Of a stretch of DNA of 64,000 nt, positions 39,001-48,000 are shown in pieces. Position 1 is the first letter of the stretch. Every line of letters starts with the position of its first letter. A program made the position numbers. This DNA is from Ophelia neglecta (lineage: Eukaryota), in contig OZ260661.1 of assembly GCA_965285935.1 (NCBI GenBank), positions 34,534,001-34,598,000 of the forward strand, given 5' to 3'.

Positions 39001-42000
39001 TCTTTTTTTTATATTTATATCGTAGTACAAACATAACTTTTTCGTTCCTCGTAAATTGACAATCATCAGGAGTCAATATGCATAAGGAAACTCACGCACT
39101 AATCTAATTACTTCATCACTGTCAATTGGACCATAATCCTAATAGTACAAGAGCCATGTTAGCTAAAATGGCTCAGACAGTTCAATTAATTCATTATGTA
39201 AGAAAAGCAAAAAAGCAAGTAAAATCTACCTACGCTGGGCAGGACGTCCTTTCAGTTATAACACATACGTTTACAAATGTGGACTGTTTAATTTTCGTCT
39301 TAGATGGAATAAAATTGACTTTATATGTAACTTCACCTTTGGAAAATTTAACAAATATCTTCAATGGAGATTTTAGAAGTACCTTTACGGTTTATATTAT
39401 AATAAGAAGTATTTACAAATCTGCATTATTAACAGTGGTCTTTATTTGATGCGTTCAACCAGACATCCAATTGGCTCGTAAAAAGATGCAACCTGATTAC
39501 TTTTCTTCAAAAATATGATTATAGTAGACGTGATTTTATTCTTTATTGAACATTGACATTAGCGTCTATAATTAGAAACTGGGTTTGGCGTATGTTTGAT
39601 GAGTAATCTGTAGGCTATATTATATATGTCTAGCAACAAAGATCTCTAGAATAAGGTTGCATCACGTTAACACTGTGAGCCGCCGACCAATACAGCATTG
39701 TTAGTGTATGTTGAATTATAAAAGGAAAATCGATGTTTGTTCACATGTAGCTGACCCAGAGTCATTGTGGTCCTATCTAATGAATTATTCTCGATGAAAG
39801 ATTTTGCATTTCCAACCGTGTTCCCACTCCCCTACGTTTGCTTATTGGGTATTAGTTAAAATTCGTAACGAAACATTTTCACATGACATTATTATAAGCG
39901 CTATTGCTTCTGGTTCGGGGGTGACTACGAGGTACCTGCATATGCCAGCGATAACGTTGCTCAATGCATGTCCAATGTTGTTTTCACCTTATATACCTTA
40001 TACTGGTCATACACAAGGCGAGAATTTTTTTTGACTTAAAAAGAAACTATTTACATACGTTTTAATATATCGTGCTGTTTGGTAATTGCCATGTTCATTC
40101 TGATGGTCTGAAAATAATGACTTGCAGAAAAAAAAGAATACATGCTTACATAATGATAAACATTTGATATATTCCAACAGTATCCATGTATGTGCAAATA
40201 TTAATAGTTAATTAATTATTGTTTTACTCTTTTCAATGATAGTTTTGTTTAATAAGATCTGATTATGAGCTAAAATCGGAACTTGGACGCATTGTCTACT
40301 CACATTGACCAGTGAACTCAAATTGGAAATACATTGATTACTAGTACAAATAAGTAATGTTTACTTTGCTGTGTTTTGGTTTGTTACAAAATGTAATGTC
40401 GTAATATGTATTGAAGCGCAGTATTTTGTACATTTTCAATCACTCACTTATCTTGTATGCTTGTCCTCAGGATGATACGATTAATGGAATGCAACCATTT
40501 ATGATCATGTACGTTTTCATCTTTCAGCTCATTCAAACATTTAGCGCAGTCTCTGGTAAGGTAAGTTCTCTCTTTTGTCCGAAGTAGTATATCTATTATC
40601 TAAGGCCATTGTTATTTGCCATTGACAACTTATCGGCAATGCTAATGTGGACAAGTATCAAAAATGAAGCCTATTACAGTTAATAGGTTCTGGGGAAAAA
40701 TTATACCCGTGAAACTTATCAAAGTAACCGTGCAAAACCATATTCTTTCATTTTTCCCTTTTGCAATGTTATCAAAAGGTTAATCATGCTTGAACTTACT
40801 GAATAAACACCCACGACATTCCAAATATATCACACTATCAGGCGACACCTCAATAATGTCAAACATAACTATAATTAGCGACTGATTCACCTGTTCTGAT
40901 CAAAGGATATTTGAACATTATATATAATATTTGATTGCTGAATGATATATTGTTATTTCCCTTTCAGTTCAGTTTAACACTAATTATGAGCATATAATAT
41001 AAATATAGCATTGACAGAACCCTGTGACAATTTCTTATACCCCATTGCTTAATTTGAATTTACTTCGACCTTAACCCGACGTATGTGTTGTCTTTTAAAG
41101 ATCACATCGGTCATTGAAGACTGGGGAATTCAGCAGTTCAGGCCCTATTTCTGGTGCTGGATATGGTTGTTCTCGCGGAACGTTTCGTAAAAAGGATAGT
41201 GAAAATGCATTGAAATCGCCTTGGGATTCGCAACTATTTTTTGGCTATTCCGCTAAATACGCTCTATATGTACAAGGTATTCTCATTTGTATTATGGCGG
41301 CAATTGCTGTCACTGCTCTATTGAAGGGACCAATTCAAACGAAAAATATTCGAAACATTACCAACAGTAGGACTGGTTACTCGGTTTCAGACTTTTATAC
41401 TGCGATGGCTGGCGATAAGTGCACTATGGAGAGAATAGACTTCAACTATTTAACGGAAGAATTGTTCAATCTAACATACCGGCTGCAACGGCCTTTTATT
41501 TTATCACACAGAAAGGGTGCTAAATATTGGCTGGATTCTAAGCTTTGGGATATTAATACACTTTCAACGCGGTATGGAAGTTTGAACGCTACGCATGAAG
41601 CCTGGGATATTACAATGGATGCAATGAACACTGAAGAAAGTACTCTAAAACTGTGTCTAGAGAATATGAAAGGCAGCAAGCAACATATCAGTGGGAATAA
41701 TATGTGTGTATTGATATTTCTGTATATATCCCATTGTTTGAAAAATTAAGTAGTGCTTTACGAGTAAAACAGAGTTACCCACTTGATGAATATTTGCAAA
41801 GCTAAAGTAATAATACTACATTTTATATATACTATGACCTTGTGCATGACGATTGGTATTACAGGTGCTTCCTCAACGATAGCACGATAACCTCATCAGA
41901 TCTGCTGACTCAGTTAAAGCTGCCCCCTTTCCCTGCACAACGTGTAAGTCCATCAGAGATGAAGTTTGTTTAATACCCATTTATATGGAAATATAATAAT

Positions 42001-45000: not shown

Positions 45001-48000
45001 AGTCATGCCTTGCAGTATTGCCGATACTAATTGTAGATGGAACTTAGAAGGCACTTTCAAGTTTGGATTAAAACACTTTGAACAATGAGGATTTCTACTT
45101 TTGATAACGATGTTTTATGTAGTTTGGAAACACCAATCTTGGATGTTAAGGAATAAATCGAGCACCATAAATATCTCTCGGCTGTTTTCATTTTGTTAAT
45201 CCACCTAATCCATAATCGTTTTCGTTTCCGAGTTAAGTTGTCGACAATCAATAATTGCAGGCAGTGCTGAAGTATCCCTCCAAGCTGTACTTGTGGGATT
45301 TGCTCATATCTTCCCTTCGACAGTCGGGTGAAAAGGCCAAAGCAAAACAAGTAGAAAGGGAAGTCAAGAAATGGAGAAATGTTTAAAACCATAATAAATC
45401 TTTCAGAGTCTAGTCAACAGATGCTTCGTTGTGATATCTTTCTCTACAAATGCAGCTTATGTACCAACTCGTATATTACTAGTTTGTTTCTTATCTTCTA
45501 TACTTTTGTCTGGCAAAGATATAAAAGTGTCATTTTTATGTGAGTGTTCTCGTTTTGTTTTCCGTGTTTTATTATTGAATACATTGACAATATATAACCA
45601 TTTTCCAATTTTCTCAAGGCTAAGAACTTTGCGGTGCTAGGAGCACAAGTATATTAATAATATAAGTGGATTGTTATTGAAGACCAATTAAAGTTATTTT
45701 TCAATTTTTCGATATGTTTGTCTGGTCATATGAAAAGTTTTAATAAACAAAGTAATCACTTTACTAGCTTACCAATTACATGTAGTAAACCATAAATTCT
45801 ATGTTTATTTTATGTCCCTGTTCAAATGAACAAAACTACATGTTCAAGACATATATTTGGGAGATTATTCCCCAGAGAATATATTTGATACCATGCCGTT
45901 ATATGATCTATCTGAAGAGTAGCAACACTTAATAAGGGATGCTTCAAACTAGGACATTTTCTCGAATAATATGCCATTAAGTATGTTTATAGTTACACTA
46001 CTTAAAGCTAAACATCTTAAACGAAAAAAAGTACTAATCGCTTCGAATAAATTACACCAAAACTAAATTCACAACACCAATTAATGTATACATAATTTTT
46101 AATAGTTCCATCAAGAGTGGTTACTAATGGTGGTTTTGATTATTCTCATTTATCGCCACTGATTGTGAGCACTTTCGACTCCTTGCTTTTTCCAACAGAG
46201 CCACAGGAAATGGCACACATAACCTTTAATTAAGGTGGAAATTAAAACGAAAATAATATACTTGTTATATCTTCTGCGTGTATAAAGCTAGCACCAGACA
46301 ACTAAATAACAGTATGCACCGAGACCAGGTGGTCACACAGTCCCAGGTATGTAGCCAACATATTTGATAATCACAAACGTGAAGCTCGGCATATAGTGGA
46401 AGCAAAGATCGCAAGACCTTATCAAGGGCAAAATGATCCCTCGCTTCCTGCATGTACATTTGTAGGAAACTGAAAGCTGCTACATAAACTCGTCTGTTTA
46501 AATACGCTATTCATACTTTACCTCTGAATTATCAGTTTGTTTTACTCACAAACATGCTCAATGAAAACTTTGAGCTTGAACCAAATTTTGAAAGAATGAA
46601 ATAAAAAAAATAAAATAGGATTGGCGTTCATTTGGGATATTTTGACGTTTGTTTTGAAAGGCATAGTTTGCTTGTTTATAAATAGATAAATAAATCTTAG
46701 GTTTTTATTTCGCAATAAGGAATGAATACCATGAATACCACATATCTAGGCACCGCCAGGCTATTGTCAGACAAAGGTCTTTGTTGAACATATAATTAAA
46801 TTGCTATTAATGTATGTCTCGGTAATCACAGCAGAATGAGATTGCAAATATAGTCGAATGTATGATGTCATGTATTTTTATATATCCATGATATATATGC
46901 CAAGGCAGTCAATCCCTCTGATACACTATTTTTACAAAGAAACTACCAACATCTACGGTACTAGTCGTAATTAGTATTGTGTGTTGGATTTAAGAATTGA
47001 GACTTGCGTTCTAACATAGTCTACTTGGACACTCTCAGAAGTTAAAAATATAGAAACGTTTCAACCCTTTGGGTATGATTCCACAAAATAACGAATTACG
47101 AATAAATTGTCCCGGGAATCATAGGAACTAGTAAATGAACGGTTCAAAATACATGCAATCGTTTATTGAGAACGGAATGCTTTAGACGAATTGTGGTGTT
47201 GCTAATTGAGTTAATTATCGTTAAACAATACCATTGCTGCGATTCTACGTGTGGGGAAAACCATGAATGTTGCCCCCAGTTAGAGTTACTACGCTTCAGT
47301 GAGTTATTAGCAATAAACGCTCATGCATCACGCACGTCTTAGTCTCTCAGTTTACTAACCCTGCAACCTCCTTATTGAATTGAAAATCTCGATATTAACC
47401 TTGGGCCCTACATAACTAATCTTCCTAATAACATTGGTTGCAGCACATTGTACACAATTTGCATACTTTACATTTAGATCTTAAACATTGTCCAGCTGGC
47501 GCTCTCGACCTGATTTGTGCTGATAGGCTTTTGGAGCAAACCCAGATAATCGCTTATCCCCAACTTTCCTAGGCTTTATTCTCGGTTCAGCGAAATGCTG
47601 CTTGCAAGATAATAGCACAAGGGCGACATGGCCCTAAAATGGCAGTTAGGTACAGAGGCTACCAGGACATTCAAGAACTTTTATGCATACATCATTGCCT
47701 TAGACCTTATCATGGCGTCCGGGTCTATCGTTCATGAGAAGCCAGTGAAGGCTGCATTAAAACTATTTCCTGGTTCACATTGTGTATATATGTAAACTTT
47801 AAAATTTACGCGCAAACATTTAGTCATTGCTGATATGATGGCGAAGGGAAAACGCCTAGGGTCCGTGATCTCGTCGGTCTCATATGAAAACGAAACGCAT
47901 TATAGATAAATAGAACGATCTTCGAACGTCTTTGTACAAGTGACGTGACTAGCAAAATGGGTAGATGAATCCAACACGGAAAGAACAATTCTTCAGCCTC

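What the first reader, a model, noticed from the sequence alone, without database searches (positions are those of the whole stretch)
41101..45386. Membrane-anchored, apparently catalytically dead JMJD8-like JmjC domain fused to TPR repeats
Seen: nine exons splice in frame into anchor + JmjC-like + TPR. Known: JmjC oxygenases bind Fe(II) through HxD/E...H, and JMJD8 has FHWH upstream of GRKRW and WWHATLN after GEVLYFP. Here those positions read IGWKVSP and IPEMFNFLEI, so all three metal ligands appear lost while the structural motifs (GKRW, W...YP.L, C...PGDILYIP) and the frame are retained. Several N-x-S/T sequons (NIT, NLT, NAT, NDS, NTS) follow the anchor. Inference: a type II secretory-pathway pseudoenzyme or adaptor that uses a cupin pocket plus TPRs for binding rather than hydroxylation. 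Vertebrate JMJD8 as I recall it has no TPRs.
Basis: partly seen in the sequence, partly recalled or inferred. Interest (0 to 1): 0.72.

Follow-up and report, generated by a model that had tools for sequence, protein, structure and literature searches.

The report
Degenerate membrane-anchored JmjC–TPR gene
This invertebrate-type gene is a very fast-evolving copy of an unstudied family of membrane-anchored JMJD8-like oxygenases fused to TPR repeats, and it has lost most or all of the residues that hold the catalytic iron, so it probably binds something rather than modifying it.

Summary
The nine-exon, in-frame model at 41101-45386 (+) holds: eight GT..AG introns and 510 codons plus TAA. It has no start codon. 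A TAA lies just upstream and the first in-frame Met sits inside the membrane anchor, so the 5' end is unresolved.

Exon by exon, the gene is colinear with 16 full-length proteins (an annelid, bivalves, a gastropod, a coral, four unnamed). All 16 share one build: basic tail, one membrane helix, Cupin_8/JmjC domain, C-terminal TPRs. All 16 keep the JMJD8-type HxH...H metal triad. The TPR fusion is therefore a family trait, not peculiar to this gene.

The window's copy is the outlier:
- Its end branch is 4.3 against a median of 0.54.
- The two motif blocks that carry the ligands are unrecognisable.
- Ligands 2 and 3 are gone in every alignment (P or S; F).
- Ligand 1 is K/V in one alignment and the His of SCHG in another.
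- The GxKRW lysine, two family-invariant Cys and core residues remain.

Best reading: a lineage-specific, non-catalytic, lumenal JmjC-TPR binding protein. A young pseudogene is not excluded. Five sequons are no more than chance. The spliced protein was not joined, searched or folded.

The parts
41101..41703 (+). Exon 1 (codons from 41102; 200 whole codons). It holds the conserved cytoplasmic tail, the membrane anchor and the N-terminal part of the JmjC-type domain. It starts at an AG acceptor, not at an ATG.
   Evidence: for the coordinates. Family profile: 47.7 bits, profile positions 91-172; E 2.6e-13 against all six-frame pieces of the window. The exhaustive phmmer search gave 13 hits at E <= 1e-3.
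41153..41194 (+). Conserved cytoplasmic motif (G-A-G-Y-G-C-S-R-G-T-F-R-K-K) upstream of the anchor.
   Evidence: 55% identity to fragment P0005 over query residues 16-59. tblastn matches of P0005 and P0009 begin at 41156 and 41150.
41267..41323 (+). Single predicted membrane helix or signal anchor (exon 1 residues 56-74).
   Evidence: Kyte-Doolittle 19-residue maximum of 2.29. It aligns with the hydrophobic stretch of the family. The AF2 model of P0004 has a helix at 92-112 at the same place.
41420..41422 (+). Cys kept at family-invariant column C155.
41865..41943 (+). Exon 2. It holds the N-D-S sequon (41875-41883) and the L-P-P-F motif.
   Evidence: 11 of 16 family rows have a sequon at the aligned position (read from the block printed).
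42088..42235 (+). Exon 3: strand-2 region of the cupin. The degenerate HxH block lies at 42118-42165, and the kept D-x-W...G-G-K-R-W block follows (GGKRW = 42187-42201).
   Evidence: HMMER aligns only from T-D-M-W onward (9.2 bits).
42350..42468 (+). Exon 4: W...Y-P-x-L...C-x-Q-x-P-G-D-I-L-Y-I block. 9 of 14 family-invariant columns are kept, including Cys C353 (42436-42438).
   Evidence: 21.4 bits, profile positions 292-322.
42707..42809 (+). Exon 5: the strand that should carry Y-H-x-T-x-N-x-G-D-T. It reads P-E-M-F-N-F-L-E-I-T-T-V-G-S, with Phe (42722-42724) at the distal His position. The exon has no His and no Asp.
   Evidence: 2 of 11 invariant columns kept; window-to-family median identity 16% against 62% within the family. 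Not aligned by HMMER.
43042..43110 (+). Exon 6: linker and the start of the first TPR (…K-K-L-H-N-L-L-P).
   Evidence: 2 of 2 invariant columns kept.
43223..43368 (+). Exon 7: TPR.
   Evidence: Pfam TPR_14 at 29.6 bits against a 23.5 cut-off. Colinear match to profile positions 393-437.
44672..44812 (+). Exon 8: TPR.
   Evidence: Family profile 10.8 bits, positions 443-485. Weak TPR_10/PPR matches, below cut-off.
45261..45386 (+). Exon 9: last TPR-like helices and the stop (TAA at 45384-45386).
   Evidence: Family profile 5.9 bits, positions 493-526.
40489..40560 (+). Candidate upstream first coding exon, unverified. ATG at 40489, 40501 or 40507 and a perfect donor AAG|GTAAGT after 40560. It fits only an internal acceptor at 41141, not 41101.
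   Evidence: consensus scan only; no homology support.

Best explanation
The locus encodes a highly diverged, lineage-specific member of an unstudied animal family. The family's build is: short basic cytoplasmic tail, one membrane helix (type II / signal-anchor), a lumenal JMJD8-type JmjC (Cupin_8) domain, and three to four C-terminal TPRs.

In the ordinary members, the HxH...H iron site and the 2OG lysine are intact. Those members are most likely secretory-pathway protein hydroxylases whose TPRs hold the substrate. ASPH and collagen prolyl hydroxylase work this way (recalled).

The window's copy has kept the anchor, the cupin scaffold, two family-invariant cysteines, the GxKRW lysine and the TPRs. 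It has lost at least two of the three iron ligands and the whole Y-H-x-T-x-N-x-G-D-T strand motif.

It therefore most likely no longer hydroxylates anything. It probably acts by binding, as a decoy, adaptor or partner of an active paralogue, through its TPRs and the remodelled pocket.

Shown: the gene structure, homology and colinearity, loss of the motifs, and the fast rate.
Inferred: topology, non-catalytic function, binding role, and that the gene is expressed.
For: GENE STRUCTURE
- Nine exons, eight GT..AG introns, 510 open codons.

HOMOLOGY
- Six exon frames are the six best hits of the family profile among all six-frame pieces of the 64-kb window, at colinear profile positions. Three of them have E < 0.01.
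- tblastn finds only this one copy in the window.

FAMILY
- 15 of 15 family rows carry PF13621 plus TPR families.
- P0004 and P0011 score Cupin_8, JmjC and TPR in Pfam.
- H298, H300 and H369 are invariant in 16 of 16 rows.
- HMMER aligns the family's H-x-H to JMJD6's H-x-D and Y-H to JMJD6's W-H.
- The AF2 model of P0004 (pLDDT 76.5) matches JMJD6 (E 2.7e-14) and JMJD5 (TM 0.74).
- HxH is the stated mark of the JMJD8 family (PMC2938197, passage; PMC5684140, passage).
- Human JMJD8 is an ER-lumenal, N-glycosylated protein with an uncleaved signal anchor (PMC5684140, passages).

DEGENERATION IN THE WINDOW
- H300 becomes P or S, H369 becomes F, N305 becomes S, T371 becomes E, N373 becomes T.
- HMMER cannot align either ligand block.
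- Exon 5 keeps 2 of 11 invariant columns, while exon 4 keeps 9 of 14.
- No alternative exon encoding either motif exists anywhere in the window (best E 0.42 and 0.51).

RATE AND RETAINED RESIDUES
- End branch 4.3 against a median of 0.54; median identity 23% against 31-52% for the other rows.
- 32 of 65-66 covered invariant columns are still kept, including C155, C353, W304, G310, K312 and W314.
Against: - There is no start codon in the model. TAA lies at 41096-41098 and the first in-frame Met is inside the anchor.
- There is no transcript evidence.
- No full-length orthologue shows that the degenerate state is conserved. The only close relative is a 95-aa fragment, P0005.
- No structure model of the window's own protein exists, because the spliced product was not joined.
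- One alignment keeps the first His. A Glu lies two residues after the lost distal His, so a rewired site cannot be formally excluded.
- Per-exon Pfam finds no cupin.
- The charged flanks of the anchor are not decisive for orientation (read from the exon 1 translation).
Confidence: 0.6

Rival explanations
1. It is a young unprocessed pseudogene. On this reading, a duplicate of the active family gene lost catalysis, drifted, and has now lost its start codon. It is not translated.
For: - No in-frame ATG before the anchor, and a stop directly upstream of 41101.
- The longest branch in the family tree.
- Both catalytic blocks are unrecognisable.
Against: - 510 codons over nine exons stay open, with all eight introns GT..AG.
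- At 4.3 changes per site, neutral drift would have broken the frame. The chance of 510 open codons at this composition is 1.6e-16.
- 32 of 65-66 invariant columns are kept, including the cysteines and the cupin core.
- 41101 follows a good pyrimidine-rich acceptor, which suggests a missing upstream exon rather than a lost start.
Confidence: 0.22
2. It is still an oxygenase or another metal enzyme with a rewired site. Possible ligands are the His of SCHG at the first position, plus the Asp of T-D-M-W or the Glu of L-E-I.
For: - The MAFFT alignment restricted to the exon 3 region places the His of SCHG on the family's first His, with an 8-residue loop insertion.
- The GxKRW lysine and D302 are kept.
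Against: - Exon 5 holds no His at all, and the H-x-x-x-N strand motif is gone.
- The second ligand is P or S in both alignments.
- HMMER gives this stretch no aligned columns.
- The alternative alignment loses the first His too.
Confidence: 0.06
3. The gene model is wrong around the active site. Real exons encoding the HxH and distal-His motifs were missed, or lie in an assembly error.
For: - Exons 3 and 5 are the least family-like relative to how conserved the family is there.
Against: - Sub-profiles of the two motif blocks, searched against every six-frame piece of the window, give only noise (best E 0.42 and 0.51). None lies between exons 2 and 6 other than the frame of exon 3 itself.
- Exon 5 begins with the family's P-E directly after ...I-L-Y-I of exon 4, at the expected place.
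- There is no N run inside the locus.
Confidence: 0.04

Closest known systems
Unnamed invertebrate family of membrane-anchored Cupin_8 + TPR proteins. Examples: Owenia fusiformis 'JmjC domain-containing protein' (P0004), and Ostrea edulis, Pecten maximus and Oculina patagonica 'uncharacterized protein' entries.
   Same: - Same order of parts over the whole length: tail, one membrane helix, cupin, TPRs.
- Colinear exon by exon.
- Shared Cys pair, D-x-W, G-x-K-R-W, W..Y-P-x-L and P-G-[DE]-I-L-Y motifs.
- The first-exon boundary seems shared. The listed fragments P0003, P0006-P0009 and P0012 end at or one residue after ...E-P (P0010 and P0013 run a few residues on), where exon 1 ends here (inference).
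   Different: - All 16 aligned members keep H-x-H...H, N305 and the Y-H-x-T-x-N-x-G-D-T strand. The window's copy does not.
- Its branch is about eight times the median.
Vertebrate JMJD8.
   Same: - An N-terminal signal anchor with a lumenal JmjC domain.
- The family to which the window's gene belongs has JMJD8's diagnostic HxH in strand 2 (PMC2938197 and PMC5684140, passages).
- An Atlas cluster named 'jmjC domain-containing protein 8' is rank 3 (score 0.94) for the cupin part of P0004. This is a lead only.
   Different: - JMJD8 is described as JmjC-only, without TPRs (PMC5684140, passage).
- The window's copy lacks HxH.
- Orthology to bona fide JMJD8 was not tested, because no JMJD8 sequence was in hand.
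JMJD6 (PDB 3k2o, 3ld8, 6gdy, 6mev).
   Same: - It is the best solved relative of the family, by sequence (E 2.4e-15) and by fold (E 2.7e-14).
- It shares the W-N...G-H-K-R-W block.
   Different: - JMJD6 is nuclear, has HxD, and has no anchor and no TPR.
- The window's exons 1 and 3, searched singly, gave no significant PDB hit.
ASPH (aspartyl/asparaginyl beta-hydroxylase) and the collagen prolyl 4-hydroxylase alpha subunit. Both are recalled; they came from no call.
   Same: - Both are secretory-pathway 2OG oxygenases that pair a double-stranded beta-helix domain with a TPR-type substrate-binding module.
- ASPH is also a type II membrane protein.
   Different: - The domain order is reversed (TPR before the oxygenase).
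- They belong to a different oxygenase subfamily.
- They are catalytically active.
JARID2 (Jumonji), the classic inactive JmjC protein.
   Same: - Conserved substitutions of catalytic residues with a retained fold and a non-catalytic, binding role (PMC11241480, passages; PMC2938197 table: 'Jumonji inactive').
   Different: - It is a nuclear, KDM5-type, multi-domain chromatin protein.
- It is not closely related, and has no anchor or TPR.

Membership tests
Invertebrate membrane-anchored Cupin_8-TPR family (alignment A1) | Colinear homology over the whole length. | tested here: met
   - Per-exon profile matches fall in order: E1 positions 91-172, E2 221-233, E3 260-277, E4 292-322, E6 374-391, E8 443-485, E9 493-526.
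- E7 matches positions 393-437.
- E1 scores 47.7 bits and E4 scores 21.4 bits; E2, E5 and E6 are not significant alone.
Invertebrate membrane-anchored Cupin_8-TPR family (alignment A1) | Residues invariant in all 16 members. | tested here: inconclusive
   32 of 66 covered invariant columns are kept; the exon-restricted alignment gives 32 of 65. The losses are concentrated in exon 5 (2 of 11 kept) and in the HxH block.
JMJD8 family | HxH instead of HxD in strand 2 (PMC2938197 table). | tested here: not met
   The family has F-H-x-H in 16 of 16 rows. The window has K/V..P or H-G-S, so no alignment gives HxH.
JMJD8 family | N-terminal signal anchor placing the JmjC domain in the ER lumen. | tested here: inconclusive
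   One hydrophobic helix is predicted. Two family-invariant Cys and a partly conserved sequon fit a lumenal domain. Localisation and orientation are not testable here.
JMJD8 family | JmjC-only architecture. | tested here: not met
   TPR_14 lies above its cut-off in exon 7. TPRs are present in all 16 family members.
JMJD8 family | Groups with bona fide JMJD8 in a tree. | not tested
   No JMJD8 sequence was available from a tool. The last protein search looked only at proteins of 30-238 aa and found nothing.
Active Fe(II)/2OG JmjC oxygenase | 2-His-1-carboxylate (here HxH...H) facial triad. | tested here: not met
   The second ligand is P or S and the distal His is F in every alignment. The first His is ambiguous.
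Active Fe(II)/2OG JmjC oxygenase | Basic residue on strand 4 that binds the 2OG C5 carboxylate (the Lys of G-x-K-R-W; its role is recalled from JMJD6 and FIH). | tested here: met
   K312 is kept within G-G-K-R-W.
Cupin_8 / JmjC fold (Pfam PF13621, PF02373) | Score above the Pfam gathering cut-off. | tested here: not met
   0 of 9 exon peptides match. The test is weak, because the exons are 22-200 aa pieces and the joined protein was not scanned. P0004 and P0011 do pass.
TPR repeat proteins | A Pfam TPR model above its cut-off. | tested here: met
   Exon 7 scores TPR_14 at 29.6 bits against 23.5. Exon 8 is below cut-off.
Pseudogene | Frame disruption, lost splice sites or a lost start. | tested here: inconclusive
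   There is no stop or frameshift, and all splice sites are canonical. However, the model has no start codon.

The most novel reading that the evidence does not exclude
The gene encodes a functional, non-hydroxylating receptor derived from a lumenal JMJD8-TPR hydroxylase. It still binds 2OG or a related acid through the retained GxKRW lysine and a remodelled pocket (His of SCHG, Asp of T-D-M-W, Glu of L-E-I), and it holds a peptide ligand with its TPRs. On this reading it is a membrane-anchored metabolite- or substrate-sensing pseudoenzyme of the secretory pathway. Its active sisters would show that ancestral JMJD8 worked with a TPR substrate clamp that vertebrates lost.
Probability: 0.08. Interest if true: 0.7.

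Novelty: new variant of a known kind. Interest (0 to 1): 0.4.

Why it matters
JMJD8 is the odd JmjC protein. It sits in the ER lumen, has HxH instead of HxD, and reviews still treat its activity and substrates as unsettled (PMC11241480, passage).

A family in annelids, molluscs and a coral joins the same kind of domain to a TPR module. That gives a handle on what such enzymes bind. A naturally degenerate copy that keeps the scaffold and the TPRs is a ready-made binding-only control.

By itself, one fast-evolving dead paralogue without transcript support is of modest interest. The wider value lies in the uncharacterised family it points to.

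Tried and rejected
- Per-exon Pfam and per-exon PDB phmmer for exons 1 and 3 gave no cupin signal. The exons are too short and too diverged. This was not taken as evidence against the fold.
- The search for homologous proteins with exon 1 and 'longer' lengths found nothing. The exhaustive search did find relatives, so the blank came from the word filter.
Names for P0002-P0013 therefore stayed unknown.
- The profile search of A1 against the PDB was swamped by TPR proteins. 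It was replaced by a search with the cupin part of P0004.
- The last protein search (A1, 'shorter') covered only proteins of 30-238 aa and found nothing. It could not show whether these species also have a TPR-less JMJD8.
- The first tree used too many columns because two residues of exon 1 aligned far downstream. It was redone on 112 columns. Rows left out of both trees: P0001 (2912 aa, repetitive match) and P0005 (95-aa fragment).
- Sequon enrichment was rejected (P = 0.24).
- The scan for an upstream ATG exon gave one good donor, which fits only an internal acceptor at 41141. It is kept as a lead, not as part of the model.
- Literature search was badly posed (any 2 of 6 terms) and is uninformative. 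One search returned 0 papers.
- tRNA and Rfam scans of the window found nothing.
- No complex prediction was run, and the second structure job was not used.

Full report
SCOPE AND LIMITS

The window has 30-40% G+C, small GT..AG introns and invertebrate-type relatives. The joined protein was never assembled, searched, scanned or folded. There is therefore no Pfam score and no structure model for the window's whole protein, and every statement about its fold is by homology. Two N runs (51662-51850, 56673-56832) lie outside the locus and were left alone.

THE OBSERVATION

Reading the sequence, listing stop-to-stop frames and checking junctions gives nine + strand exons:
- E1 41101-41703
- E2 41865-41943
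- E3 42088-42235
- E4 42350-42468
- E5 42707-42809
- E6 43042-43110
- E7 43223-43368
- E8 44672-44812
- E9 45261-45386

All eight introns (112-1303 nt) are GT..AG. The phases agree, none of the four split codons is a stop, and the total is 1534 nt = 1 + 511 codons ending in TAA. My first coordinates for E7-E9 were off by one to three bases. That caused the error and the wrong sum, and they were corrected from then on.

At this base composition the chance of 216 open codons (the E1 frame) is 2e-7. The only other frames above 200 codons in the window are three EamA genes.

One flaw in the model: TAA lies at 41096-41098, and the first in-frame Met is inside the hydrophobic segment. So 41101 is an acceptor (pyrimidine-rich tract then AG), and the start codon must lie in an upstream exon that I could not identify.

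A scan found ATGs at 40489, 40501 and 40507 followed by a perfect donor after 40560. That fits only an internal acceptor at 41141 and has no homology support.

WHAT EACH EXON IS

Pfam on the nine peptides gives only TPR_14 for E7 (29.6 bits, cut-off 23.5) and sub-threshold TPR/PPR for E8. Nothing matches Cupin_8 or JmjC. PDB phmmer with E1 and E3 finds nothing significant.

The exhaustive phmmer search with E1 found 13 proteins at E <= 1e-3:
- Two are full length (P0004, 578 aa; P0011, 523 aa).
- Nine are 157-276-aa pieces covering the same first-exon region. P0003, P0006-P0009 and P0012 end at or one residue after ...E-P.
- One (P0005, 95 aa) is 55% identical to the cytoplasmic tail.
- One (P0001) is a repetitive 2912-aa protein that I did not pursue.

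P0004 and P0011 score Cupin_8, JmjC and several TPR families in Pfam.

THE FAMILY

A search with P0004 returned 21 proteins. Fifteen of them (P0004 and 14 others) carry PF13621 plus TPR families. The other six are TPR-only matches.

Named sources are Owenia fusiformis, nine bivalves (Ruditapes, Pinctada, Ostrea, Mercenaria, Mya, Argopecten, Ylistrum, Pecten, Sinanodonta), the gastropod Babylonia and the coral Oculina. All are 'uncharacterized', 'JmjC domain-containing' or, once, 'PSR-like'. Three have no name, and I did not look for their origin.

Aligned with P0011 (16 rows), the family shows:
- a basic N-terminal tail and a hydrophobic helix;
- a cupin with invariant C155, H298, H300, D302, W304, N305, G310, K312, W314, C353, Y368, H369, T371, N373 and G375-D376-T377;
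- C-terminal TPRs.

HMMER aligns the cupin part of P0004 to JMJD6 (E 2.4e-15). The family's H-x-H lies on JMJD6's H-x-D, and Y-H lies on W-H. That these are JMJD6's iron ligands is recalled knowledge.

An AF2 model of P0004 built on the alignment (mean pLDDT 76.5, pTM 0.72) has a helix at 92-112, a beta-rich domain and eight helices from 419 to 572. Foldseek puts JMJD6 first (E 2.7e-14) and JMJD5 at TM 0.74.

HxH in strand 2 is given as the mark of the JMJD8 family in the table of PMC2938197 (passage seen). PMC5684140 (passages seen) reports a conserved His in place of Asp, ER-lumenal location, an uncleaved signal peptide that may act as an anchor, N-glycosylation and a JmjC-only build.

So the family looks like JMJD8 with TPRs added, or retained. 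Orthology to JMJD8 itself was not tested. The Atlas hit to a cluster named 'jmjC domain-containing protein 8' (rank 3, 0.94) is a lead only.

THE WINDOW'S COPY AGAINST THE FAMILY

The family profile was searched against every six-frame piece of the window. Its six best hits are the frames of E1 (E 2.6e-13), E4 (8.8e-5), E8 (0.006), E3 (0.13), E9 (1.1) and E7 (1.5). Only the first three reach E < 0.01. All six lie at colinear profile positions. tblastn with 26 family proteins finds no second copy in the window.

Identity by exon:

| Exon | Window-to-family median | Within-family median |
|---|---|---|
| E1 | 22% | 44% |
| E2 | 36% | 52% |
| E3 | 29% | 78% |
| E4 | 28% | 64% |
| E5 | 16% | 62% |
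| E6 | 28% | 33% |
| E7 | 19% | 33% |
| E8 | 23% | 36% |
| E9 | 18% | 39% |

Of the family-invariant columns covered, 32 of 66 or 32 of 65 are kept. By exon this is 9 of 14 in E4 but 2 of 11 in E5.

Kept residues are both Cys, D302, W304, G310, K312, W314, W336, Y-P-x-L and G-x-I-L-Y. Lost are H300 (P or S), H369 (F), N305 (S), T371 (E), N373 (T) and G-D-T.

The first His depends on the alignment:
- MAFFT fragment addition puts K/V there. That alignment misplaces the start of E3 over E2's region.
- MAFFT restricted to the E3 region aligns V-S-C-H to V-S-F-H, with an eight-residue insertion before D-M-W.

hmmalign refuses to align either the stretch before T-D-M-W or the first 14 residues of E5.

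The safe statement is that at least two of three ligands, and the whole distal-His strand motif, are gone. E5 has no His or Asp at all. Sub-profiles of the two motif blocks find no alternative exon anywhere in the window (best E 0.42 and 0.51).

RATE

A tree on the 112 columns filled by the lumenal part of E1 was built with 26 rows (P0001 and P0005 left out). It gives the window an end branch of 4.3 changes per site against a median of 0.54. Median identity is 23%, against 31-52% for the others. No supported placement emerged; the nearest row by path is Owenia.

An open frame, canonical splice sites and half of the invariant core surviving that much change argue for selection on a folded protein through most of its history. 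They do not exclude recent death.

TOPOLOGY AND SEQUONS

There is one hydrophobic segment (KD 2.29, E1 residues 56-74). Five N-x-S/T sequons follow it, but shuffling gives 3.40 on average and P = 0.24, so the count means nothing.

The N-D-S of E2 does sit where 11 of 16 family rows have a sequon (block). The basic tails of the family, the two invariant Cys and the JMJD8 precedent make an N-in, lumenal-domain orientation the likeliest. This is inference.

MECHANISM

I commit to a non-catalytic, membrane-anchored lumenal binding protein that uses TPRs and a remodelled cupin pocket. It is probably a decoy, adaptor or partner of an active paralogue. My estimates:
- about 0.85 that it is not a canonical Fe/2OG oxygenase;
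- about 0.65-0.7 that it is a live gene;
- about 0.6 for the reading as a whole.

The rivals are a young pseudogene (0.22), a rewired metal site (0.06) and a wrong model at exons 3 and 5 (0.04).

NOVELTY

Dead JmjC domains are known. JARID2 is the example (PMC11241480, passages; PMC2938197 table).

I found no paper on a JMJD8-type domain fused to TPRs. The search for 'jmjd8' plus 'tetratricopeptide' gave 12 papers (11 listed). None concerns this by its title. In the one I opened (PMC2938197), the TPR mentions belong to other families. One search was ill-posed and one search gave 0 papers. Supplements were closed and might list such architectures.

The family members are in public databases, unnamed. 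I therefore rate this a new variant of a known kind, of moderate interest.

Noticed in passing
window 49600-61300, minus strand (ORFs 49611-50708, 54854-55939, 59821-60906): There are three tandem copies of a unit of about 5 kb, 92-96% identical in DNA. Each carries a single-exon 361-365-codon gene of the EamA (drug/metabolite transporter) family. The proteins are 86-91% identical.
   Followed up: partly
window 51662-51850 and 56673-56832: The two N runs lie at equivalent positions of two successive EamA repeat units (one search shows alignment breaks at both). They look like the same masked or unresolved element. They were not filled.
   Followed up: no
window 52193-52486 and 57171-57461, minus strand: Two near-identical 96-97-codon open frames lie between the EamA genes, as part of the repeat unit. 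The first has no Pfam match.
   Followed up: partly
window 40489-40560, plus strand: A short ATG-initiated open frame ends at a perfect AAG|GTAAGT donor, 540 nt upstream of exon 1. It could be the missing first coding exon if the acceptor is at 41141 rather than 41101.
   Followed up: partly
window 43369-44671 (intron 7): This is by far the longest intron (1303 nt). It holds a 115-codon open frame (43742-44089) with no Pfam match. It may be a repeat or transposon remnant.
   Followed up: partly
P0001 (protein): A 2912-aa protein matched exon 1 residues 59-106 in 21 separate stretches, with the best E-value of the search (1.6e-11). It is probably a repetitive hydrophobic or low-complexity match. 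I did not examine it.
   Followed up: no
alignment A1, P0004 columns C155 and C353: Two cysteines are invariant in all 16 family members and kept in the window. In the JMJD6 alignment, JMJD6 has Ile at the second position (C353); the first lies before the aligned stretch. They may form a lumenal disulfide. The distance in the model could not be read.
   Followed up: no
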